Positions 560 through 9,721 of a stretch of DNA of 64,000 nt are shown piece by piece. The stretch is from Lutibacter sp. (GTDB taxonomy: Bacteria; Bacteroidota; Bacteroidia; Flavobacteriales; Flavobacteriaceae), in contig JAVVEF010000001.1 in assembly GCA_032251275.1 (NCBI GenBank), positions 46,891 to 110,890 on the forward strand. Reading direction: 5' to 3'. Each line of letters opens with the position of its first letter. Position 1 is the first letter of the stretch. A program made the translations under genes and the position numbers. A model generated the notes under the pieces. That model did not search any database. It was not told the origin of the DNA and saw only the letters and a program-made list of their open reading frames with translations.

Positions 560-2641
560 ATGGATAAAGAAATGAAAAATCCAACTACATCCGACGAGAA
601 CAAATCAAAATTCCCTAACACTACAAAAAGCGAATTGTTAAATCGATTAAATGAACAAGAAAAATTAATTGATTCGCTTAAAGAAATTGAAAATAAATAC
701 CAAAACTTATTCAACAACTCTATTGACGGAATCTACAAAAGCACTGAAGAAGGTAAATTTATTGAGGTAAATGCTTCGTTGGTTGAAATGTTGGGTTATG
801 ATTCTAAGGAAGAATTGTTAAGCATAGATATTAAAACCCAGCTATATTTTGATGTTTCCGAAAGAGACCAGGAATTGAGTAATTTACAGAGAACTTTTAA
901 AAAAAGTGACATTTACCGCCTTCGTAAAAAGGATGGTACTGAAATTTGGGTGGAGGATCATGGAAGAAATGTGTATGATACCCTAGGAAAGGTTATCTAT
1001 TATGAAGGAATTTTAAGAGATGTTTCTGAAAAAAAGAAAAATGATGATGTACTGAATGTATTGCTGAAAATTTCCAGAAAGGCCAATGTCACCTCAAGTT
1101 TAAAGAAATTTGTCCAGTTAATTCAATCGGAATTGGGGCGTATTATTGACACCAGTAATTTTTATATTGCCTTTATCAACAGGGAAAAACAAACAATTAA
1201 TATCCCTTTTATTTCCGGGGAAGAATCTGAGGAGGAATTTCCTGCAGAAAAATCGATGACCGCACATTTAATAAATACCAATAAGTCCATATTTATTCAT
1301 GAAAAAGGCCTTAAAAAATTATTGGATCAACATATCATTAAACAAATAGGACCAATGTCAAAAGCTTGGCTTGGGGTTCCCCTAAGAGTTAATGATGAGG
1401 CCATAGGGGCCATCGTTGTTCAAAGTTATGAAAATAAAAATGCCTTTAAACAAAGCGATATTGAATTGTTGGAGTATGTGGCATCACACATCAGTTTGGC
1501 AATTCAGCGTAAAAAAATTCATCAGGAAACGCTTATCTCAAAACAAATTTTAAGAAAGGTGCTTGACCATATTCCAATCAATGTTTTTTGGAAAGATGCT
1601 GATTCTAATTTTTTAGGTGTCAACGCTATTTCTTTGAGGGAAATGGGATTGGAAAATGAAAGTGATGTTGTTGGCAAATCGGATGTTGATTTTTATGATA
1701 AAATGGATGCCGAAAAATATAGGAGAGATGAGCTGGCCATAATGCAATGTGGCAAGCCAAAATTAAATTATGAGGAATCTCATATTAAAAATGGAGAAAC
1801 AAGATGTTATGTATCCAATAAATTGCCAATTTTTGATGAAAAAAATCAGGTAATTGGCATTGTTGGTACTTCAGAGGATATTACCGAAAGAAGAAAAAAC
1901 CAATTGGAATTGGAAAAATTAACGAACGAATTAAAGATTCAGAATGATACAAAAAACAAATTTTTCTCCATTATATCTCATGATTTAATAAATCCTATTG
2001 CCGGAATAATTGGATTTTCTGAATTGCTAAAAGAGAATTCAGAGGATTTACATCCTGAAAAAATTAAATCTTTTGCAACCATTATTAATAAATCTGCCAA
2101 TTTTACCTTGGCTTTGCTCCACGATTTATTGGAATGGTCAAGAGTTCAAATAGGAAGTATTGAAGCTGAAAAGGAAGATTTTATATTAAGTCATTTATTG
2201 ACACATAATATTACGGGGGTAAATTCGCTTGTTTCTTCAAAAATTATTGATTTAAAATCTGATTTTTCAGAAAATTTGAGCGTTTTTGCAGATAAAAAAA
2301 TGGTTTCTACCATCACAAGAAATTTATTGTCGAATGCCATTAAGTTTACGCCAAAAAGAGGAACAATTACCGTTTCTTCAAAAGAAATTATGGTGAATGG
2401 CAAGAAAATGATAGAAACTGCTATTACTGATACCGGGATTGGAATGAGTGAGAAAAAAGTCAAAAATCTATTCAAAATTGAACATAATTATAGATCTGCA
2501 GGAACCGACAAGGAAGCGGGAACCGGTTTGGGTTTGGTTCTTTGCAATGAGTTCATCGAAAAAAATGGTGGCACTATTAAAGTGATAAGCAATGAAAATG
2601 TCGGTAGCAGTTTTATCTTTACTTTAGAAGCATCTTCTTAA
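560..2641 (+). CDS. Cytoplasmic PAS-GAF-PAS sensor histidine kinase
   Basis: PAS motifs (DGIY...G.FIEVN; IPINVFWKD), a GAF segment (WLGVPL...IGAIVVQSY), H-box SHDLINP, N-box NLLSNAIKFT, G1 DTGIGM and G2 GTGLGL; no TM helix. Confidence 0.92.
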   Translation: MDKEMKNPTTSDENKSKFPNTTKSELLNRLNEQEKLIDSLKEIENKYQNLFNNSIDGIYKSTEEGKFIEVNASLVEMLGYDSKEELLSIDIKTQLYFDVSERDQELSNLQRTFKKSDIYRLRKKDGTEIWVEDHGRNVYDTLGKVIYYEGILRDVSEKKKNDDVLNVLLKISRKANVTSSLKKFVQLIQSELGRIIDTSNFYIAFINREKQTINIPFISGEESEEEFPAEKSMTAHLINTNKSIFIHEKGLKKLLDQHIIKQIGPMSKAWLGVPLRVNDEAIGAIVVQSYENKNAFKQSDIELLEYVASHISLAIQRKKIHQETLISKQILRKVLDHIPINVFWKDADSNFLGVNAISLREMGLENESDVVGKSDVDFYDKMDAEKYRRDELAIMQCGKPKLNYEESHIKNGETRCYVSNKLPIFDEKNQVIGIVGTSEDITERRKNQLELEKLTNELKIQNDTKNKFFSIISHDLINPIAGIIGFSELLKENSEDLHPEKIKSFATIINKSANFTLALLHDLLEWSRVQIGSIEAEKEDFILSHLLTHNITGVNSLVSSKIIDLKSDFSENLSVFADKKMVSTITRNLLSNAIKFTPKRGTITVSSKEIMVNGKKMIETAITDTGIGMSEKKVKNLFKIEHNYRSAGTDKEAGTGLGLVLCNEFIEKNGGTIKVISNENVGSSFIFTLEASS

Positions 2642-2686
2642 TCAAAATCGGTGTTTTTTTTATAAATTGCCGAAAATTAAAATTTT

Positions 2687-3151
2687 ATGGGTGTTACAGT
2701 AAAAAAAATGAACCGATTTCTGATATTTAAATTGCCATCGGCCTATTTATGTGGCGTGCGGTTAAAAGAACTCGATAATGAAAAAACCATTGTTACCGTA
2801 ACACATCGATGGATTAACCAAAATCCGTTTAACTCTATGTATTTTGCAGTTCAGTCAATGGCGGCTGAACTAACCACAGGCGCTTTGGTGATTAAAAAAA
2901 TTAAAGAAAGTGGCAAGCAAATTTCTATGTTGGTGACCAACCACAACGGTACTTTTACTAAAAAGGCAGTTGGGAAAATAACTTTTACCTGTACCGATGG
3001 TCATTTGCTTGATGAGGCTTTAAAAAGAACCATTGAAACTGGTGAAGGACAAACTATTTTATTGAAATCGGTAGGCCTAAATGAAAATAACGAGCAGGTT
3101 TCTGCCTATGAATTTGAATGGAGCGTAAAATTGAAATCAAAACAATCATAA
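2687..3151 (+). CDS. Hot-dog fold thioesterase-like protein (DUF4442/YiiD-like)
   Basis: KLPSAYLCGVR...NQNPFNSMYFAVQSMAAELTTG pattern of Bacteroidetes DUF4442 proteins. Confidence 0.75.
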   Translation: MGVTVKKMNRFLIFKLPSAYLCGVRLKELDNEKTIVTVTHRWINQNPFNSMYFAVQSMAAELTTGALVIKKIKESGKQISMLVTNHNGTFTKKAVGKITFTCTDGHLLDEALKRTIETGEGQTILLKSVGLNENNEQVSAYEFEWSVKLKSKQS

Positions 3152-3216: not shown

Positions 3217-3627
3217 ATGTTATCCAAAAGAGCAAGATACGCTATCAAAGCACTGTTATTCCTTTATGAGAATAAAGAGAAAACACCAATTTCTGCAAAA
3301 TTAATTTCAGAAAATGAAAATATTCCCTATAAATTTCTTGAAAATATTCTTCGCGAATTGCGCCAGAGCAAGATTTTAAAAAGTGAACGTGGCGCAGGTG
3401 GAGGCTATAGGTTTTCAAAAGAGCCAAGCGAAATTACCATAGCCGATATCATTAGAATTATTGACGGTCCAATCGCTTTAATTCCTTGTGTTTCTTTAAA
3501 TTTTTATGAAAAATGCGATGAATGTGACGATGAAGCTACTTGTAAAATAAAAAAATTATTTGTTCAATTGCGTACTGAAATGTTGCCAATACTGAACAAA
3601 TCATTGGTTGAGGTAGAGCGATTATAA
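3217..3627 (+). CDS. Rrf2-family transcriptional regulator with three C-terminal Cys
   Basis: wHTH YAIKAL...IPYKFLENIL...S.RGAGGGY, DIIRIIDGPIA, and CVSLNFYEKCDECDDEATC. Confidence 0.93.
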   Translation: MLSKRARYAIKALLFLYENKEKTPISAKLISENENIPYKFLENILRELRQSKILKSERGAGGGYRFSKEPSEITIADIIRIIDGPIALIPCVSLNFYEKCDECDDEATCKIKKLFVQLRTEMLPILNKSLVEVERL

Positions 3628-3642
3628 ATTTTTTTAATTTTA

Positions 3643-3684
3643 TATCATATAAATTTGGTAGGATAAATATGTTTTATATATTTG
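3643..3684 (+). promoter_or_regulatory. Promoter (-33 TTTG 3654-3657, -7 TATATTTG 3677-3684) overlapped by an imperfect palindrome, putative Rrf2 operator
   Basis: 19-nt spacing fits the Bacteroidetes consensus; TATCATAT-N7-GTAGGATA at 3643-3665 spans the -33 box. Confidence 0.6.
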
Positions 3685-3710
3685 TCGAATCAAAAATCAA
3701 AAACTATAAA

Positions 3711-4793
3711 ATGAAAAAAATCTTTATCTCCTTATTTTTATTGATAATCAGTTTATCAATAAAAGCACAATCCAATGATGATTTAATTAACCTGTTAATC
3801 AAAAATGGTTCTATAACAAAACAACAAGGCGATTCATTGAAAGCAAAATCTTCTTCAGAAAAAAAAGCAAATTTTGTTGAGGTGGGCAGTAAAATAAAAT
3901 TGGCGGGTTATACACAATTGCGTTACAGGCAATTTGACGAACAGGGAAAAATAGATCAATTTGATATTCGCAGAGCGCGTCTTGATGTCAGAGGCGCAAT
4001 ATCCCCACGTTGGAATTATCGTTTGCAGGTTGAATTTGCAAATTCTGTGAAATTATTAGATGCCTACGCGGAATATAAACTCAACGATTATTTGAACGTT
4101 ACGCTTGGGCAGGCCAAAATTCCTTTTTCGCTTGAAAACCTAGCTTCATCATCAAAACTCGACCTTATTGACCGTTCTCAGGTAGTTGAGGCATTGGTTG
4201 GCAGAGGCAAGGATGTTATTGGTAATAACGGTGGTCGCGATATTGGCGTTCAGGTTGGCGGGACTATTTTTAAGTATGAAGGCAGGGCTTGTGTCGATTA
4301 TAAAATTGGTGTTTTTAACGGCCTAGGCATTAACACAGGCGACAATAACCAGCACAAAGACATTGCGGCCAGACTGATTATTCATCCAATTAAAGGGTTG
4401 GATATCAGTGGCGCTATTTATGACGGAGAGGCGAATATTGCTTCGGTAAATTCTAAACGCGACAGGTATGGGTTCGACCTAAACTATAACTGGCAAAATT
4501 GGGTTGTAAGCAGTGAGTATATTCATGGAGAAGACGGCCAAAAAACAAAAGAGGGGTTTTACCTTCAAACTGGCTATTATTTCTTGGATAAAAAATTGCA
4601 AATCGTTGCGAAATACGACACTTATGATGCTGATAAAGCAGTAAGCGACAATGCTTCAACTTTGTATGTTTTGGGCGCAACCTATAATTTCAACAACAAT
4701 GCGCGTTTTCAAATAAACTATACATTTAAAGATGAACAAGGCATTAGCGTGGATAATAATTATGCCGCAGCCCAGTTTCAAATTAGATTTTAA
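3711..4793 (+). CDS. Outer-membrane anion porin, OprO/OprP-like
   Basis: Signal peptide MKKIFISLF (start moved to 3711, downstream of the promoter), FDIRRARL, LLDAY, GQ.KIPFSLE.L.SS and GRDIG motifs, C-terminal Phe. Confidence 0.85.
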   Translation: MKKIFISLFLLIISLSIKAQSNDDLINLLIKNGSITKQQGDSLKAKSSSEKKANFVEVGSKIKLAGYTQLRYRQFDEQGKIDQFDIRRARLDVRGAISPRWNYRLQVEFANSVKLLDAYAEYKLNDYLNVTLGQAKIPFSLENLASSSKLDLIDRSQVVEALVGRGKDVIGNNGGRDIGVQVGGTIFKYEGRACVDYKIGVFNGLGINTGDNNQHKDIAARLIIHPIKGLDISGAIYDGEANIASVNSKRDRYGFDLNYNWQNWVVSSEYIHGEDGQKTKEGFYLQTGYYFLDKKLQIVAKYDTYDADKAVSDNASTLYVLGATYNFNNNARFQINYTFKDEQGISVDNNYAAAQFQIRF

Positions 4794-4840: not shown

Positions 4841-5797
4841 ATGAAAAAACTAAATTATATCATATTGGCGATAGCGATAACTTCCGTTTTCGTTTCTTGC
4901 GACACAAAGAAAAAAGAGGCTGTTGAGCCTGCCAGAGTAAGCTTATCTGGCGCATTTGCCTTGTATCCATTGGCAAATCAATGGGCTGATGAATACAACA
5001 AAGCAAATCCCGATAAGCAAATTAGGTTTGATATTCAGGCCGGTGGAGCCGGAAAGGGAATGGCCGATGCTTTGGGCGGCATTGTAGATTTAGGGATGTT
5101 TTCGAGGGAAATTACGCAGGCTGAAAAAGATAAAGGTGTTTGGTGGGTGGCCGTTACCAAAGATGCGGTAATTCCAACGATTAGTGCTGAGAATCCAGCG
5201 CTTGAAACTTTAAAGAAAAAAGGATTGACACAAGCTGAATTTAAAGCCATTTTTGTTGATAGAACCATCACCAATTGGAAACAACTTTCCGGAATTGAAA
5301 TTGATGCACCAATTAAAATATTTACGCGTTCCGATGCCTGTGGAGCCGCAGCAACTTGGGCGGCTTTTATTGATGCAAAACAAGAAGATTTAAAAGGTGT
5401 GGGTGTTTTTGGAGATCCAGGATTGGCAGAAGCCGTAAGCAAAGAGCCTGCCGGAATTGCCTATAATAATATTGTATATGCCTATGACATCAATACAGAA
5501 AAAAAACGTCCGGGAATTGAAGTGATTCCAATTGACATTAATGGTAATGGGACTATTGATGAAGATGAAAATTTCTATGAAAACGTAAGAAATTTACTTG
5601 ATGCAGTCGCAAAAGGAAAATTTCCTTCTCCGCCCGCAAGAGAACTTTATTTTGTGGCCAACGGAAAACCGCAAAACCAGGCGACAATAGATTTTTTGAA
5701 GTGGGTTTTAACAGATGGGCAACAATATGTGGTTCCGGCAGGTTATGTTACTTTAGAAGGAAAATATTTGAAAGAACAAGAAAATAAATTAAATTAG
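4841..5797 (+). CDS. pstS: PstS-family ABC substrate-binding lipoprotein with non-canonical ligand residues
   Basis: Lipobox VSC; PBP2 fold motifs GAFALYP, GGAGKG, GMFSR and TRSDACGA; located in a pstCAB-like operon. The ligand may not be phosphate. Confidence 0.8.
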   Translation: MKKLNYIILAIAITSVFVSCDTKKKEAVEPARVSLSGAFALYPLANQWADEYNKANPDKQIRFDIQAGGAGKGMADALGGIVDLGMFSREITQAEKDKGVWWVAVTKDAVIPTISAENPALETLKKKGLTQAEFKAIFVDRTITNWKQLSGIEIDAPIKIFTRSDACGAAATWAAFIDAKQEDLKGVGVFGDPGLAEAVSKEPAGIAYNNIVYAYDINTEKKRPGIEVIPIDINGNGTIDEDENFYENVRNLLDAVAKGKFPSPPARELYFVANGKPQNQATIDFLKWVLTDGQQYVVPAGYVTLEGKYLKEQENKLN

Positions 5798-5822: not shown

Positions 5823-5852
5823 AGATACATCTCCTTAATTGGAGGTGTATCT
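5823..5852 (+). promoter_or_regulatory. Intra-operon stem-loop after the binding-protein gene (mRNA stabiliser or attenuator)
   Basis: AGATACATCTCC-TTAATT-GGAGGTGTATCT, 12-bp stem with one G-U pair and no U-tract. Confidence 0.55.
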
Positions 5853-5873: not shown

Positions 5874-6512
5874 ATGGCACATTTAAGACTAGGGGATACC
5901 GCTCCAAATTTTACGGCGGAAACCACCGAAGGAAAAATTGAATTTCACAATTGGCTGGGCGTTAGCTGGGGAATTTTGTTTTCTCATCCGGCCGATTTCA
6001 CGCCTGTTTGCACCACAGAATTGGGTGCAACGGCAAAACTGAAAAACGAATTTGAAAAGCGCAACGTAAAAGTAGTCGCTTTAAGTGTAGATTCTTTGGA
6101 AAGTCACCACGAATGGATAAAAGATATTAATGAAACACAAAAAACAGAAGTGAATTTTCCAATTATTGCCGATCCCGACCAAAAAGTGGCTGAATTGTAC
6201 GGAATGATTCATCCAAATGCATCAGAAAAATTTACCGTGCGTTCTGTTTTCATTATTGGACCAGATAAAAAAATAAAATTGACCATTACTTATCCGGCTT
6301 CAACTGGAAGAAATTTCCAGGAATTGCTTAGGGTAATTGACAGTTTGCAATTGACCGCACACCACCAAATAGCCACGCCGGCAAACTGGCAAAAGGGTGA
6401 AGATGCTGTAATATCTCCTTCGGTTTCAGACGAGGAAGCCCAAAAACGTTTTCCGGGATTCAAAAAAATAAAACCTTATTTAAGAATTACCAAAACCAAT
6501 AATCTACAATAA
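5874..6512 (+). CDS. 1-Cys peroxiredoxin (Prx6/LsfA-like)
   Basis: LRLGD.APNF, W..LFSHPADFTPVCTTELG, YPASTGRNF and ATPANW; single Cys. Confidence 0.95.
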   Translation: MAHLRLGDTAPNFTAETTEGKIEFHNWLGVSWGILFSHPADFTPVCTTELGATAKLKNEFEKRNVKVVALSVDSLESHHEWIKDINETQKTEVNFPIIADPDQKVAELYGMIHPNASEKFTVRSVFIIGPDKKIKLTITYPASTGRNFQELLRVIDSLQLTAHHQIATPANWQKGEDAVISPSVSDEEAQKRFPGFKKIKPYLRITKTNNLQ

Positions 6513-6517
6513 TATAG

Positions 6518-7399
6518 ATGCGAAAATTTATTGATTCATTGTCAAGCGGCTGGATGCAAATTGCCATTTGGTTTGTGCTGTTGCTGCCGCTGATGATTGG
6601 ACTTGGCTTGGTTGTAAAATCAATGCCATTGTTGCAAGAAAATTCTTTGATCGGTATTTTAAGCAGCTCAACCTGGTCACCTATGAGAGGTGACTTTGGT
6701 TTTTTGCCCTTCATCATATCAACCATTTTGGTTACTGTAATTGCCACCGCCATTTCCATGCCTTTGTGTTTGCTTTCGGCCATTCATTTAACCCAATATG
6801 CGCCAAAATGGTTGTTGGGTTTTATGCATTCTGTTATAGATATTTTGGCGGGAATCCCGTCGGTGGTTTACGGCGTTTGGGGAATTTTGGTGATTGTTCC
6901 TTTTGTGGGCGACAATTTAGCGCCATTTTTTAATGCGGAATCCAGCGGTTACAGCATTTTGGCTGGTGCTTTAGTATTGGCGGTTATGACCATTCCTTAT
7001 GTGTTGAATATGCTTATTGAAGTTTTTAACAGCATTGCGGTTGAATACAAAGAAGCGTCACTTTCATTGGGCGCAACTTATTGGGAAACCATAAAATTTG
7101 TGGTGTTAAAAAAAGGTTTGTCTGGTATTCTTTCCGCTTTTGGATTGGGAATTTCAAAAGCATTGGGAGAAACTATTGCTGTGCTTATGGTGGTGGGAAA
7201 TGTAGTGCAATTTCCAAAGAGCGTTTTTGACGCGGGCTATCCTTTACCGGCTCTAATTGCCAATAATTATGGCGAAATGATGTCAATTCCTTTTTACGAT
7301 TCGGCTTTGATGCTGGCGGCATTGCTGCTTTTTATCATCGTTATATTTTTTAATGTTGCCGCAAGGTATCTCATACAAAAAACCACAGTTACGCAATGA
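6518..7399 (+). CDS. pstC: Pst-type ABC permease
   Basis: Multiple TM helices, LAGIPSVVYGVWG, EAA loop EASLSLGATYWET, and ALGETIAV. Confidence 0.9.
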   Translation: MRKFIDSLSSGWMQIAIWFVLLLPLMIGLGLVVKSMPLLQENSLIGILSSSTWSPMRGDFGFLPFIISTILVTVIATAISMPLCLLSAIHLTQYAPKWLLGFMHSVIDILAGIPSVVYGVWGILVIVPFVGDNLAPFFNAESSGYSILAGALVLAVMTIPYVLNMLIEVFNSIAVEYKEASLSLGATYWETIKFVVLKKGLSGILSAFGLGISKALGETIAVLMVVGNVVQFPKSVFDAGYPLPALIANNYGEMMSIPFYDSALMLAALLLFIIVIFFNVAARYLIQKTTVTQ

Positions 7400-8247
7400 T
7401 GAACAGGAAAAAAATTGAAGAACAGTTTTTTAGGCTATTGATGTCTTTGGTCACCGCATCCATCATTTTGGTATTGGTGTATATTTTTTATATCATTCTA
7501 AAAAAGGGATTGCCGTCTTTATCTTGGGATATGGTGAGCAGATTGCCCGAAGGCGGCTATTATTTTGGAAAAGAAGGCGGAATTTTAAATGCCATAATTG
7601 GCTCATTTTATATTTCGGTTTCAGCCACATTTTTAGCTTTTATTATCGGATTGCCGGTGGCGCTTTATATGAATGTTTATTTGGTTCGAAGGCCAAAATT
7701 TTTAACAATGACCCGATTTGTTTTAGACGCTTTATGGGGCGTTCCGTCTATTGTTTACGGAGCATTCGGATTTACCATAATGATTTATTTCGGATTAAGA
7801 ACTTCGTTATTGGCGGGAATAATTGCCGTAACCTTGCTTATTATTCCCATTATGATTAGGGCAATGGATGAGGTTTTGAGAACCATTCCCAAAGGTTTGA
7901 TGGAAGCTTCTTTGGCTCTGGGTTCCACAAAAACGGAAACGGCTTTTAAAGTTTTTTTCAAACAGGCTTTGCCCGGATTTATTACCGCCATTTTATTGTC
8001 TTTTGGACGTGGAATAGGCGATGCGGCTTCCGTATTATTTACGGCTGGATTTACAGATCATATTCCCGAAAAATTGACTGATCCGGTGGCAACGTTGCCT
8101 TTGGCCATCTTTTTTCAATTGGGATCGCCAATACCAGAAGTCCGTGAAAGAGCTTATGCCGCTGCAGTCATACTGATTGCCATTGTTTTCACCATTAGCC
8201 TTACGGCAAGATTGTTATCAAAAAAATTCAAAAAACACCAAGTATAA
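7396..8247 (+). CDS. pstA: Pst-type ABC permease
   Basis: GGILNAIIGS, GVPSIVYG, EASLALG, GRGIGD and TLPLAIF; ATGA overlap with pstC. Confidence 0.9.
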   Translation: MMNRKKIEEQFFRLLMSLVTASIILVLVYIFYIILKKGLPSLSWDMVSRLPEGGYYFGKEGGILNAIIGSFYISVSATFLAFIIGLPVALYMNVYLVRRPKFLTMTRFVLDALWGVPSIVYGAFGFTIMIYFGLRTSLLAGIIAVTLLIIPIMIRAMDEVLRTIPKGLMEASLALGSTKTETAFKVFFKQALPGFITAILLSFGRGIGDAASVLFTAGFTDHIPEKLTDPVATLPLAIFFQLGSPIPEVRERAYAAAVILIAIVFTISLTARLLSKKFKKHQV

Positions 8248-8249
8248 GA

Positions 8250-9002
8250 ATGGAAAGTGCAATTGTAATTAAAAATTTAAAAGTTTCTTCAAAAGAAAAA
8301 TTGATTTTAAAAGGAATCAATATCGAAATTCCCAAAAATAAATTGACGGTGCTTTTAGGACCATCCGGTTGCGGAAAAACAACTTTGTTTAAATGTTTGA
8401 ATCGGTTAACGGATTTATACCCTGAACTTAAAGTTGAAGGGAGCGTGTTTATTGGTGAAGACGATATTTTTCATACCAAACAAAATGTAACAGATTTACG
8501 TCAAAAAATGGGGCTTTTAAACCAAAAACCGTATCCCTTGCCTATGTCTATTTTTAAAAATGTGGCGTATGGATTAAAATTGAAAGGCGTAAAAGATAAA
8601 AAAATATTGGCAGAAAGGGTGGAAGTTTATTTAAAACAAGCCGCCCTTTGGGACGAGGTAAAAGATAGGTTAGATGATTCTGCCACAAAACTTTCAATAG
8701 GCCAACAACAGCGATTGTGCTTGGCAAGAGGCTTGGCCACAAATCCCGAAATCCTTTTGGCCGATGAACCTACTTCCGCATTGGATCCAATTTCGAGCAA
8801 AGCCATTGAAGAAAAGTTTTTGGAATTAAAGGAAAACTATACCGTAATTGTGGTTACCCATATTTTACGGCAGGCAAAACGATTGGCCGATCACGTTATT
8901 TTTATGTACGACGGACAAGTAATTGAGCAGGGAAGTCCCAAAGAATTGTTTGAAAATCCGCAAACGGAAACTTTGAAAAAATATATTCAGGTTGGATATT
9001 GA
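8250..9002 (+). CDS. pstB: Pst-type ABC ATPase
   Basis: Walker A GPSGCGKT, signature LSIGQQQRLC, Walker B LLADEPTSALDPIS, and VTH. Confidence 0.92.
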   Translation: MESAIVIKNLKVSSKEKLILKGINIEIPKNKLTVLLGPSGCGKTTLFKCLNRLTDLYPELKVEGSVFIGEDDIFHTKQNVTDLRQKMGLLNQKPYPLPMSIFKNVAYGLKLKGVKDKKILAERVEVYLKQAALWDEVKDRLDDSATKLSIGQQQRLCLARGLATNPEILLADEPTSALDPISSKAIEEKFLELKENYTVIVVTHILRQAKRLADHVIFMYDGQVIEQGSPKELFENPQTETLKKYIQVGY

Positions 9003-9021
9003 TTTTTTGTTGGTTGTTAAG

Positions 9022-9057
9022 CAAAAAACAGCGAAATTTTTATTTCGCTGTTTTTTT
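9022..9057. terminator. Bidirectional intrinsic terminator
   Basis: CAAAAAACAGCGAAAT-TTTT-ATTTCGCTGTTTTTTT between convergent genes. Confidence 0.8.
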
Positions 9058-9079
9058 GTGAATAATTTCAATCACTGTT

Positions 9080-9721
9080 TTAAACCTCCAAAGATTCCAA
9101 TTCTTTATAGTTTCTGTTTAATTTTTTCAGCAAAATTCCGTAAATAATTCTGTAATAAGCCCATATAATTCCACACATCGCCAACAAAACAACGATTTGA
9201 ACCACAATCATAATGCCCAGAAATTTATCGCTGTCCAAAGTGGCGTTTTTCGGCATCATGTTTTCAATTAAAATATTGGGATGTGAAAACATAACAACAT
9301 TCAAAATAACCGACAATAAAATGTACAAAGCAATATTGTAATACACATAATAATTCACCGTTTTGCGGGTTTTTAAAATGTTTTTCATCAGTAAATTGGT
9401 GCTGTCAACTACCGAAATTGTCTTGTAATTTTTATAAAACAGGTAAATAAAAACAAACACCACAACATAATGCAAAATTTGCGCAATAAACAGAAATGTA
9501 TTTAAATTGAATTTTTCATAAATGGCAAAAGTGCTTTCAGGAATCAAAAGCGTTATCAATCCCCAAAACAAAAATTCTGCCACACAAATAATAAAAATCA
9601 ATTTCACAATCGATGAAGATTTTTTATGGATCAATTTATAAATTTCGTCATACGATAATTTCGGAAAATCAGCGCCTTGCTTTTTCCAATCCTTTTTTAA
9701 GAATTCTAGTTCATCCATCAT
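9080..9721 (-). CDS. Membrane protein, probable ECF anti-sigma partner
   Basis: MDELEFLKKDW N-terminus and four TM helices; begins immediately after the ECF sigma stop codon. Confidence 0.7.
   Translation of the reverse strand: MMDELEFLKKDWKKQGADFPKLSYDEIYKLIHKKSSSIVKLIFIICVAEFLFWGLITLLIPESTFAIYEKFNLNTFLFIAQILHYVVVFVFIYLFYKNYKTISVVDSTNLLMKNILKTRKTVNYYVYYNIALYILLSVILNVVMFSHPNILIENMMPKNATLDSDKFLGIMIVVQIVVLLAMCGIIWAYYRIIYGILLKKLNRNYKELESLEV

What the first reader, a model, noticed from the sequence alone, without database searches (positions are those of the whole stretch)
4841..5797. PstS-like protein has Ala/Cys where phosphate-binding Ser/Thr normally sit
Seen: the motifs read SGAFALYP, GGAGKG, GMFSR and TRSDACGAAATW. 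Known: canonical PstS-family motifs are roughly GST/S..P, GSG.G, SSR and R..GSGT, and their hydroxyls (E. coli T10, S38, S139, T141) hydrogen-bond phosphate; sulfate-binding proteins rely mainly on backbone NH donors. The Arg and Asp are kept, but four hydroxyl positions appear as Ala, Ala, Cys and Ala. The alignment is by eye. A pocket Cys beside a co-encoded peroxiredoxin also raises the possibility of redox or persulfide chemistry at the binding site.
Basis: partly seen in the sequence, partly recalled or inferred. Interest (0 to 1): 0.7.

Follow-up and report, generated by a model that had tools for sequence, protein, structure and literature searches.

The report
Phosphate-type transporter repurposed for sulfate uptake
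This gene is annotated as a phosphate-binding protein, but it has lost the groups that recognise phosphate's proton, and in related bacteria it sits inside sulfate-assimilation operons, so it most likely captures sulfate for an ABC importer that databases currently count as a phosphate transporter.

Summary
ORF 4841-5797 encodes a PstS-fold lipoprotein with the motifs SGAFALYP, GGAGKG, GMFSR and TRSDACGAA. HMMER alignments to solved PstS structures put Phe39, Ala70, Cys167 and Ala169 at E. coli T10, S38, S139 and T141. Arg163 and Asp165 are kept. One correction: the T10 position is Phe, not Ala.

These changes are a family signature, nearly invariant in 162 orthologous loci. At least 594 species genomes carry the motif, mostly Bacteroidota.

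The pocket lacks both Thr/Ser proton acceptors that S-type PstS proteins need for HPO4(2-); here they are Ala40 and Ala169. It also lacks Asp56.

The gene always travels with pstC, pstA, pstB and an outer-membrane anion channel. No PhoU or PhoBR gene recurs beside it. In 21 of 162 loci it lies beside cysH, cysD, cysN, sulfite reductase or siroheme synthase, 20 of them on the same strand with short gaps. Orthologues of its Rrf2 regulator sit next to TauE-type or CysP-type sulfate permeases, or next to sulfite reductase.

Best reading: a Pst-derived sulfate (possibly thiosulfate) importer. This is not biochemically tested.

The redox/persulfide idea is not supported. Cys167 is Ala or Ser in 28% of orthologues. 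The peroxiredoxin has no signal peptide and occurs only in Lutibacter loci.

The parts
3217..3627 (+). Rrf2-family transcription regulator (136 aa) with a C91-x8-C100-x2-C103-x5-C109 motif. First gene of the operon and probable sulfur/Fe-S-status regulator.
   Evidence: PF02082 E 1e-34. It scores below the equivalog cut-offs for CymR and IscR. The four Cys are conserved in 39-46 of 50 orthologues. Orthologues of 50-80% identity lie next to TauE, CysP-type PiT, or sulfite reductase plus siroheme synthase.
3669..4793 (+). Outer-membrane anion porin of the OprO/OprP type (374 aa, with signal peptide).
   Evidence: PF07396 Porin_O_P E 6e-22. An outer-membrane barrel (Porin_O_P 45, Alginate_exp 63) accompanies the binding protein in 108 of 162 loci.
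4841..5797 (+). PstS-fold substrate-binding lipoprotein (318 aa; lipobox FVSC, Cys20). This is the finding. Proposed ligand: sulfate.
   Evidence: AlphaFold2 model pLDDT 93.5. All top Foldseek matches are PstS proteins.
4946..4969 (+). Motif SGAFALYP (aa 36-43). Phe39 sits at E. coli T10. Ala40 sits at the S-type proton-acceptor Ser/Thr (C. perfringens S13, SphX T17).
5042..5059 (+). Motif GGAGKG (aa 68-73). Ala70 sits at E. coli S38. Lys72 is nearly invariant.
5093..5107 (+). Motif GMFSR (aa 85-89). Ser88 sits at the Asp56 position, as in S-type PstS, and is the only pocket hydroxyl kept. Arg89 is nearly invariant.
5324..5359 (+). Motif TRSDACGAAATW (aa 162-173). Arg163 and Asp165 are kept. 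Cys167 (codon 5339-5341) sits at S139. Ala169 sits at T141, the second proton acceptor of S-type PstS.
5823..5852 (+). 12-bp stem-loop between the binding-protein gene and the downstream genes. Probably a partial terminator or mRNA stabiliser that sets a higher binding-protein level (inference).
   Evidence: Folding energy -18.6 kcal/mol, z = -6.8.
5874..6512 (+). Cytoplasmic 1-Cys peroxiredoxin (212 aa; single Cys46 in PVCTTE; no signal peptide). A lineage-specific insert, 5 bp upstream of pstC.
   Evidence: PF00578 plus PF10417; NF009668 229 > 211 bits. Found in 2 of 162 loci.
6518..7399 (+). PstC-type permease.
   Evidence: TIGR02138 252.7 > 196.45. Aligned to E. coli PstC (9k3s): R237 -> Lys214, E241 kept.
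7396..8247 (+). PstA-type permease.
   Evidence: TIGR00974 209.7 > 193.45. E. coli R220 kept (Arg205); E224 -> Asp; S130 -> Gly.
8250..9002 (+). PstB-type ATPase.
   Evidence: TIGR00972 324.3, just under the cut-off of 343.2.
9021..9059 (.). Strong A-run/hairpin/T-run terminator that closes the operon. It is shared with the convergent gene at 9080-9721.
   Evidence: Sequence. Folding energy -19.1 kcal/mol, z = -6.0.

Best explanation
The gene encodes the periplasmic, lipid-anchored binding protein of an ABC importer that descends from the S-type PstSCAB phosphate system and has been repurposed for sulfate, probably also accepting close analogues such as thiosulfate or selenate.

Proposed mechanism:
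1. Sulfate crosses the outer membrane through the co-encoded anion porin.
2. It is trapped in the interdomain cleft of the binding protein by donor groups only: the backbone NH groups of residues 39, 40, 70, 168 and 169, Ser88-OH, and the Arg163 guanidinium held by Asp165.
3. It is handed to PstC/PstA, which keep the basic residues of the transmembrane anion site, and is imported at the cost of ATP hydrolysed by PstB.

Every hydroxyl or carboxylate that could accept the proton of HPO4(2-) has been replaced by Ala or Phe. The site should therefore reject protonated phosphate and accept a fully ionised tetrahedral dianion. This is the same logic that separates Salmonella Sbp from E. coli PstS.

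The operon is controlled by a four-Cys Rrf2 regulator (other lineages use a HisKA_3/LuxR two-component system). In Lutibacter the operon also carries a cytoplasmic 1-Cys peroxiredoxin as a sulfur-starvation-type accessory.

Shown: fold, motif substitutions and their conservation, operon structure, gene neighbourhoods.
Inferred: the ligand, the hydrogen-bond scheme, and the regulatory signal.
For: 1. Pocket. HMMER alignments to liganded PstS structures map the phosphate ligands as follows: T10 -> Phe39, the F11/S13 position -> Ala40, S38 -> Ala70, D56 -> Ser88, R135 -> Arg163, D137 -> Asp165, S139 -> Cys167, T141 -> Ala169. In S-type PstS the proton of HPO4(2-) is accepted by SphX Thr17 (C. perfringens Ser13) and Thr148 (Thr131); the SphX T17A mutation abolishes phosphate binding (PMC13614923). 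Both positions are Ala in all 98 orthologues of the first census (the wider set agrees).

2. The protein scores at about half the curated PstS cut-offs. PstC and PstA pass theirs. No dedicated NCBIfam model exists for this family.

3. Context in 162 unique loci. The core is an outer-membrane anion barrel, the binding protein, PstC, PstA and PstB. No PhoU or PhoBR cluster recurs.

4. Sulfate-assimilation genes lie beside the system in 21 loci, in 20 of them on the same strand with short gaps. They occur in at least six different gene orders and several lineages. Examples:
- L070: cysD-21bp-cysN-20bp-cysH-24bp-SBP
- L090: pstB-47bp-cysH-21bp-cysD
- L082 (Ignavibacteriales): pstB-cysH-cysD-cysN-sulfite reductase-siroheme synthase
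- L229 (Mucilaginibacter sp. E4BP6, complete genome): SiR-CysG-TauE-CysH-porin-SBP-PstCAB
The gene identities were confirmed above NCBIfam cut-offs: CysH 258.7 > 154, CysD 432.9 > 195, CysN 555.6 > 336.

5. Regulator. Orthologues of the window's Rrf2 (50-80% identity) lie next to TauE/SafE genes, a family shown experimentally to include sulfate uptake transporters (PMC11535334). Others lie next to a PiT whose only NCBIfam hit is the CysP-type sulfate permease, or next to sulfite reductase plus siroheme synthase. In seven loci Rrf2 is divergently transcribed from a unit of binding-protein gene (preceded by a porin gene in five), pstCAB and cysH, followed by cysDN where the contig extends that far.

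6. The co-encoded 1-Cys Prx has a precedent in LsfA, induced more than 45-fold by sulfur starvation.
Against: There is no biochemical or genetic test, and no ligand-bound structure.

Only about 13% of loci are cys-linked (15% of those with full flanks). Most loci carry a two-component system whose signal is unknown.

The pocket keeps the Arg163-Asp165 pair and gains conserved Lys72, Arg89 and Arg267, whereas classical Sbp uses no charged residue. The chemistry therefore differs from Sbp and could suit another dianion.

PstC and PstA still pass the phosphate-equivalog HMMs.

In Anaerophaga and Marinilabilia, ars genes lie next to the operon.

I could not check whether the same genomes also carry a canonical pstSCAB-phoU or lack cysPTWA.
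Confidence: 0.7

Rival explanations
1. It is still a phosphate-binding protein. It would be a low-affinity or specialised Pst paralogue, for example one that discriminates against arsenate, binding H2PO4-/HPO4(2-) through backbone NH groups, Ser88 and Arg163.
For: PstS fold, with all top structural neighbours being phosphate binders. The Arg163-Asp165 pair is kept. PstC and PstA pass the phosphate equivalog cut-offs. A porin of the OprO/OprP family is co-encoded. Ars genes and a PiT gene lie beside the operon in Marinilabiliaceae.
Against: Both proton-acceptor hydroxyls and Asp56 are absent; SphX T17A alone abolishes phosphate binding. The protein scores at half the PstS cut-offs. No PhoU or PhoBR recurs in 162 loci. 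It is operonic with cysHDN, sulfite reductase and CysG. The neighbouring PiT resembles the CysP sulfate permease rather than PitA.
Confidence: 0.1
2. The main ligand is a different fully ionised oxyanion such as thiosulfate, sulfite, selenate, molybdate or tungstate. Phe39 and Cys167 would contact a larger or softer atom, for example the terminal sulfur of thiosulfate.
For: The Ala/Phe/Cys lining makes a roomier and more hydrophobic pocket than sulfate strictly needs. Known sulfate systems such as Sbp/CysP also take thiosulfate, selenate and molybdate (general knowledge; Aguilar-Barajas 2011 as cited in PMC11535334). Two loci carry tandem binding-protein copies, as with the Sbp/CysP pair. The porin has a weak hit to the ExtI selenite/tellurite porin.
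Against: The linked enzymes are CysDN and CysH, which act only on sulfate/APS and are not needed for thiosulfate or sulfite. No mod, moa, nif or sel genes recur nearby. Cys167 is often Ala.
Confidence: 0.12
3. One reading: the pocket Cys performs redox, persulfide or S-thiosulfonate chemistry on the ligand, functionally coupled to the co-encoded peroxiredoxin.
For: Cys167 is the only Cys of the mature protein apart from the lipid anchor, and it lies in the cleft. It is conserved in 71% of orthologues. A Prx gene sits 77 bp downstream.
Against: Position 167 is Ala in 26 and Ser in 19 of 162 orthologues, including six Ala variants inside cys operons. The Prx occurs in 2 of 162 loci and is cytoplasmic, whereas the binding protein is exported.
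Confidence: 0.03
4. It is an arsenic-related binding protein, for arsenite bound through the thiol or for arsenate or thioarsenate, belonging to an ars island.
For: ACR3-, ArsM- and ArsC-like genes lie directly downstream on the opposite strand in Anaerophaga (two loci) and Marinilabilia; a fourth locus, L009, carries only the ArsM-like methyltransferase. In all, 5 of 162 loci have at least one ars-like gene nearby. Thiol ligation of As(III) is known for AioX (own knowledge).
Against: The association is restricted to a few closely related genomes and is on the opposite strand. There is no biological reason to import arsenite with an ATP-driven system. The Cys is dispensable in orthologues. The sulfur context is much more frequent.
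Confidence: 0.03

Closest known systems
S-type PstS phosphate-binding proteins (C. perfringens PBP-1, 4gd5/4q8r; Synechocystis SphX and Sll0540; V. cholerae 1twy)
   Same: Same fold and closest sequence relatives (E 2e-17, about 22% identity). Ser at the Asp56 position in a GM-x-SR motif. Arg-x-Asp motif before the second glycine loop. Works with PstC/PstA/PstB.
   Different: All Ser/Thr ligands other than Ser88 are replaced (Ala38, Phe39, Ala40, Ala70, Cys/Ala/Ser167, Ala169), including both proposed proton acceptors. Scores below the family cut-offs. Found in sulfur rather than Pho gene neighbourhoods.
Sbp/CysP-CysTWA sulfate/thiosulfate ABC importer (SulT family, E. coli/Salmonella)
   Same: Proposed function and logic: a periplasmic binder that offers only hydrogen-bond donors to a fully ionised tetrahedral dianion, an ATP-driven importer, and co-regulation with cysDN/cysH.
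   Different: Not homologous at the family level. There is no SBP_bac_11 match, and the permeases score only 30-40 bits against the CysT/CysW models compared with more than 200 bits for PstC/PstA. This pocket keeps an Arg-Asp pair and further conserved basic residues, whereas Sbp uses no charged ligand (established knowledge, Pflugrath and Quiocho).
TauE/TSUP-family and PiT-family (B. subtilis CysP) sulfate permeases
   Same: Alternative sulfate importers found under the same Rrf2 orthologues, with the same kinds of outer-membrane barrel, and sometimes in the same operon as this system. Sulfate uptake by TauE homologues and by CysP is shown experimentally (PMC11535334).
   Different: These are secondary carriers with no binding protein and are unrelated in sequence.
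LsfA, the 1-Cys peroxiredoxin of Pseudomonas (sulfate-starvation-induced protein)
   Same: The window's Prx is a Prx6-type 1-Cys enzyme (PVCTTE, 1-cysPrx_C domain) encoded in a putative sulfur-acquisition operon. LsfA is induced more than 45-fold by sulfur starvation.
   Different: The link here is purely genomic and is restricted to Lutibacter (2 of 162 loci). Regulation has not been measured.

Membership tests
PstS phosphate-binding protein (functional family) | Type II periplasmic-binding-protein fold / PF12849 | tested here: met
   PF12849 E 5e-31. AlphaFold2 pLDDT 93.5. Foldseek top 40 are all PstS, probability 1.0.
PstS phosphate-binding protein (functional family) | Score above the curated NCBIfam cut-off (TIGR02136 or TIGR00975) | tested here: not met
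   109.8 against 206.6 bits; 61.2 against 205 bits.
PstS phosphate-binding protein (functional family) | Hydroxyl ligands at T10, S38, S139 and T141 (E. coli numbering) | tested here: not met
   Phe39, Ala70, Cys167 and Ala169 by HMMER alignment to 4gd5, 4exl and 8ods. Conserved across orthologues.
PstS phosphate-binding protein (functional family) | Acceptor for the phosphate proton: Asp56 (D-type) or the Thr/Ser pair SphX T17/T148 (S-type) | tested here: not met
   Ser88 at the Asp56 position; Ala40 and Ala169 at the S-type acceptor positions.
PstS phosphate-binding protein (functional family) | Arg135-Asp137 pair | tested here: met
   Arg163 and Asp165 are invariant in 98 of 98 sequences.
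PstS phosphate-binding protein (functional family) | Pho-regulon context (phoU after pstB, phoBR) | tested here: not met
   No such cluster among recurrent neighbours in 162 loci. All clusters found in five or more loci at the position after pstB were identified as other families.
PhoT-type ABC importer (PstC/PstA/PstB) | Two different permeases and an ATPase matching the Pst models | tested here: met
   PstC 252.7 > 196.45. PstA 209.7 > 193.45. PstB 324.3, slightly below 343.2.
PhoT-type ABC importer (PstC/PstA/PstB) | Transmembrane anion-site residues PstC R237/E241 and PstA R220/E224/S130 (PMC12976172) | tested here: inconclusive
   PstC R237 is Lys in the window and Lys/Arg 51/40 in the family; E241 is kept. 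PstA R220 is kept; E224 -> Asp and S130 -> Gly are invariant. The basic site is retained, which fits any dianion.
Sbp/CysP sulfate-binding protein family (SulT) | Sequence membership (SBP_bac_11, CysT/CysW partners) | tested here: not met
   No such Pfam or NCBIfam hit for the binding protein. The permeases score 30-42 bits on the CysT/CysW models.
Sbp/CysP sulfate-binding protein family (SulT) | Binds sulfate; transporter supplies the CysDN pathway | not testable with these tools
   Only genomic linkage to cysH, cysD, cysN, sulfite reductase and CysG in 21 of 162 loci.
1-Cys peroxiredoxin (Prx6 type) | PVCTTE peroxidatic Cys, no resolving Cys, 1-cysPrx_C domain | tested here: met
   PF00578 plus PF10417; NF009668 229 > 211; single Cys46.
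Rrf2 regulators (CymR / IscR equivalogs) | Rrf2 domain; equivalog-level score | tested here: inconclusive
   PF02082 is met (119.7 bits). CymR 76.9 < 195 and IscR 76.3 < 207. The family has its own CX8CX2CX5C motif.

The most novel reading that the evidence does not exclude
The family is a previously unrecognised class of bacterial sulfate importer, created by turning a phosphate receptor into a sulfate receptor through loss of its proton acceptors. On top of this, the Cys-bearing majority form (71%) would use the pocket thiol to favour thiosulfate or to form a transient S-S adduct, giving redox-gated uptake of sulfur oxyanions.
Probability: 0.07. Interest if true: 0.85.

Novelty: new variant of a known kind. 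Interest (0 to 1): 0.62.

Why it matters
1. Phosphate-versus-sulfate discrimination by periplasmic receptors is a textbook case of ligand specificity. This family would be a natural experiment in which the phosphate scaffold was converted by removing every proton acceptor. That makes the rule testable by forward and reverse mutagenesis (A40T, A169T, F39T).

2. It would add a sulfate-uptake route beside SulT, SulP, CysZ, PiT-type CysP and TauE. It would fill the sulfate-transporter gap in many Bacteroidota, Ignavibacteriota, Aminicenantes and others.

3. Public annotation calls these genes pstS, pstC, pstA and pstB. Metagenomic phosphorus-cycling surveys, and Pho-regulon inferences in groundwater, sediment, rumen and peat Bacteroidota, therefore count a probable sulfur gene as a phosphate gene.

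Tried and rejected
- Redox/persulfide role of Cys167 with the Prx: rejected on conservation and compartment.
- Arsenic link: ACR3/ArsM/ArsC lie next to the operon in three Marinilabiliaceae loci, and L009 carries only the ArsM-like gene. The genes are on the opposite strand. Judged coincidental or secondary.
- Phosphite recognition through a P-H...pi contact with Phe39, and molybdate or tungstate: considered from memory. No ptxD, htx, mod or nif genes recur nearby. Not pursued.
- A shared Rrf2 operator upstream of Rrf2 orthologues: only weak AT-rich palindromes and no consistent motif. Inconclusive.
- Sigma-70 promoter scan: uninformative, 27 sites against 25.5 expected, and Bacteroidota promoters are not covered by the scan.
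- RNA evidence: only DNA metagenome runs (groundwater and similar) hold this sequence, so expression could not be examined.
- Cys genes or a second sulfate or phosphate system in the 64-kb window: none found by tblastn with my reference set.
- Literature searches for a Pst-like sulfate importer or an Rrf2 sulfate regulator in Bacteroidota: nothing found. Absence from this library is not proof of novelty.
- Pocket geometry could not be measured, because model coordinates are not exposed by the tools.
Full report
**What is there.** The finding's coordinates are exactly one ORF: 4841-5797, + strand, 318 aa. It begins with a lipoprotein signal (…SVFVSC20) and contains only one other cysteine, Cys167.

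It is the third gene of a tightly spaced operon on the + strand:
- Rrf2 regulator, 3217-3627
- OprO/P-type porin, 3669-4793
- binding protein, 4841-5797
- a strong hairpin, 5823-5852
- 1-Cys peroxiredoxin, 5874-6512
- PstC, 6518-7399
- PstA, 7396-8247
- PstB, 8250-9002
- a hairpin/T-run terminator at about 9021-9059

**Checking the observation.** The four motifs are present at aa 36-43, 68-73, 85-89 and 162-173. The protein belongs to the PBP_like_2 family (E 5e-31). It reaches only 109.8 bits on the PstS model TIGR02136 (cut-off 206.6) and 61.2 on TIGR00975 (cut-off 205). PstC and PstA pass their equivalog cut-offs, and PstB just misses its own.

HMMER alignments to solved, phosphate-bound PstS proteins are gapless through the motifs and agree with each other. 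They give this map:

| E. coli PstS | This protein |
|---|---|
| T10 | Phe39 |
| F11 position | Ala40 |
| S38 | Ala70 |
| D56 | Ser88 |
| R135 | Arg163 |
| D137 | Asp165 |
| G138 | Ala166 |
| S139 | Cys167 |
| G140 | Gly168 |
| T141 | Ala169 |

An AlphaFold2 model built on a 40-sequence alignment is confident (pLDDT 93.5). Its 40 best structural neighbours are all PstS proteins at 17-24% identity.

**It is a family signature, not an accident.** The motifs are invariant in 120 database homologues of at least 57% identity. Four genome scans gave 162 unique orthologous loci.

In these orthologues:
- The first motif reads SGAFALYP in 137, SGAWALYP in 19, SGAFAIYP in 4 and SGAYALYP in 1, so position 39 is Phe/Trp/Tyr in 141/19/1.
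- GGAGKG, Ser88, Arg163, Asp165, Ala166, Gly168, Ala169, Asp108, Asp192 and Arg267 are invariant or nearly so.
- Position 167 is Cys in 115, Ala in 26 and Ser in 19.

At 30-40% identity the family grades into ordinary S-type PstS sequences (GSTTLYP … GGGSGKG … TRSEASGT). The family is therefore derived from S-type PstS.

The hosts are mostly Bacteroidota: Bacteroidales, Marinilabiliales, Cytophagales, Chitinophagales, Sphingobacteriales and Flavobacteriales. There are also Ignavibacteriales, Aminicenantes, Planctomycetota and Kiritimatiellia MAGs. The window itself is from a Lutibacter-like flavobacterium. Its nearest relative is at 94% identity, and the sequence is found in groundwater metagenomes.

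**What the pocket says.** A 2026 structural study divides PstS proteins into two types. D-type proteins use Asp56 to accept the single proton of HPO4(2-). S-type proteins have Ser at that position, and the proton is accepted by two Thr/Ser residues: SphX Thr17 (C. perfringens Ser13) and Thr148 (Thr131). SphX T17A abolishes phosphate binding (PMC13614923).

By the alignment these two positions are Ala40 and Ala169 here, and they are Ala in all 98 orthologues of the first census. Of the six or seven side-chain hydroxyls that contact phosphate in S-type proteins, only Ser88 survives. What remains are backbone NH groups, Ser88-OH and the Arg163 guanidinium, which are all donors.

A site with no acceptor cannot satisfy a protonated oxyanion, but it suits a fully ionised one. 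This is the established rule that separates the sulfate-binding protein from the phosphate-binding protein (Luecke and Quiocho; established knowledge). The exact hydrogen-bond scheme is inferred, because I could not inspect model coordinates.

**What the neighbourhood says.** Across the 162 loci the counts are:

| Neighbour | Loci |
|---|---|
| PstC | 151 |
| PstA | 143 |
| PstB | 137 |
| Outer-membrane anion barrel (Alginate_exp 63, Porin_O_P 45) | 108 |
| HisKA_3 kinase/LuxR-type two-component system | about 42 |
| Rrf2 regulator | 39 |

No PhoU or PhoBR cluster recurs. Every cluster present in five or more loci was identified as something else.

In 21 loci (13 of the 88 with full flanks) sulfate-assimilation genes lie beside the transporter, in 20 of them on the same strand with short gaps. 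They occur in at least six different gene orders:
- pstB-cysH-cysD-cysN (peat and fen Bacteroidales)
- cysD-cysN-cysH-SBP with 20-24 bp gaps (rumen Bacteroidales)
- pstB-cysH-cysD-cysN-sulfite reductase-siroheme synthase (Ignavibacteriales)
- pstB-(APS kinase)-cysD-cysN-cysQ (Cyclobacteriaceae)
- sulfite reductase-cysG-tauE-cysH-(cysD-cysN)-porin-SBP-pstCAB (Mucilaginibacter isolates, including the complete genome NZ_CP183227.1)

CysH, CysD and CysN were confirmed above curated cut-offs. CysDN and CysH act on sulfate/APS only. This is why I favour sulfate over thiosulfate or sulfite as the primary ligand.

**What the regulator says.** The window's locus has no cys genes, so I tested its regulator independently. 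Orthologues of the Rrf2 protein (50-80% identity) in other Bacteroidota lie directly upstream of one of the following:
- a TauE/SafE gene (five Lutibacter loci; in one Flavobacterium locus the order is Rrf2-Alginate_exp barrel-TauE)
- a PiT-family gene whose only NCBIfam match is the CysP-type "sulfate permease" (Aquaticitalea)

In Sphingobacteriaceae, Rrf2 instead follows sulfite reductase plus siroheme synthase on the same strand.

TauE homologues, and B. subtilis CysP, have been shown experimentally to import sulfate (PMC11535334). The same regulator family therefore governs three interchangeable inner-membrane sulfate carriers, each paired with an outer-membrane anion channel. The Pst-like system is one of them.

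The regulators share a CX8CX2CX5C motif, present in 39-46 of 50. This suggests an Fe-S or redox-sensing Rrf2 rather than a CymR-type protein. That is an inference.

**The peroxiredoxin and the cysteine.** The Prx is a Prx6-type 1-Cys enzyme without a signal peptide. It occurs only in the two Lutibacter loci. The exported binding protein and a cytoplasmic Prx cannot share a reaction. The thiol at position 167 is dispensable in 28% of orthologues, including six Ala variants embedded in cys operons. The redox/persulfide reading is therefore unlikely.

A simpler explanation of the Prx is precedent: the 1-Cys Prx LsfA is among the most strongly induced genes in sulfur-starved Pseudomonas, more than 45-fold (PMC12581299).

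**The membrane part.** Aligned to the E. coli PstSCAB cryo-EM chains, PstA Arg220 is kept. PstC Arg237 is Lys here and Lys or Arg in the family. PstC Glu241 is kept. PstA Glu224 -> Asp and Ser130 -> Gly are invariant. The basic anion site is intact, which is compatible with either dianion and does not discriminate between them.

**Verdict.** The most likely reading (about 0.7) is a Pst-derived, binding-protein-dependent sulfate importer that is currently annotated everywhere as a phosphate transporter.

Rivals:
- A residual phosphate function (about 0.1).
- Another fully ionised oxyanion as the main ligand (about 0.12).
- Thiol chemistry at Cys167 (about 0.03).
- An arsenic role (about 0.03). 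This was suggested only by ars genes beside a few Marinilabiliaceae copies.

I found no paper describing such a system, and NCBIfam release 20 has no model for it. The literature library is incomplete, however, so I rate it a new variant of a known kind rather than categorically new. Nothing here is biochemically tested, and the decisive experiments are listed separately.

Noticed in passing
window 5823-5852: Perfect 12-bp stem-loop (-18.6 kcal/mol, z -6.8) between the binding-protein gene and the Prx-pstCAB genes. It is likely a partial terminator or mRNA stabiliser giving an excess of binding protein over permease.
   Followed up: partly
window 3217-3627; Rrf2 genes in 50 loci: The Rrf2 regulators linked to this system and to TauE/PiT/sulfite-reductase genes share a CX8CX2CX5C motif (39-46 of 50). 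This spacing is unlike IscR or NsrR and may mark a distinct Fe-S-sensing sulfur regulator subfamily.
   Followed up: partly
L010, L018, L025 (Anaerophaga, Marinilabilia); L009: ACR3-, ArsM- and LMW-ArsC-like genes lie immediately downstream of pstB on the opposite strand in L010, L018 and L025. L009 carries only the ArsM-like methyltransferase. A CysP-like PiT gene lies upstream in L010, L016, L018 and L025.
   Followed up: partly
P0233, P0262 (distant relatives, about 31-34% identity): PBP_like_2 domain fused to a glycine-cleavage H-protein (lipoyl-carrier) domain, 567-579 aa. An odd architecture with no obvious explanation.
   Followed up: no
P0124 (651 aa): Binding protein fused to a BPD_transp_1 permease domain in one polypeptide. 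This confirms the physical partnership of this binding-protein family with Pst-type permeases.
   Followed up: no
L044 8969-10957; L062 5882-6862 and 10001-10978: Two copies of the binding-protein gene per locus (tandem in L044), both with the SGAFALYP motif. This is reminiscent of the Sbp/CysP pair of E. coli.
   Followed up: no
L070 12837-13313; L083 12871-13907; L200 downstream of TauE: Tandem arrays of small genes of about 155-163 aa following pstA or TauE. The L070 example tested has no Pfam or NCBIfam match.
   Followed up: no
L107 1521-2264; L217, L218, L244, L245 at the position after pstB: DUF2490 proteins recur next to the CysP-like PiT and next to this Pst-like system in Flavobacteriaceae. 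They are possibly a third kind of outer-membrane anion channel for the same pathway.
   Followed up: no
L008 182-1117 and 33 other loci: The HisKA_3 kinase paired with the system has three N-terminal membrane helices and no periplasmic domain. It may sense through the transporter itself, as PhoR does through PstSCAB/PhoU.
   Followed up: no
window 560-3151: A PAS/GAF histidine kinase (693 aa) and a DUF4442 protein lie upstream of the operon. The same pair occurs in L118 (77% and 92% identity), about five genes from a minus-strand gap beyond an Rrf2 orthologue, with no transporter seen in that 8.5-kb stretch. They are neighbours, not part of the system.
   Followed up: partly
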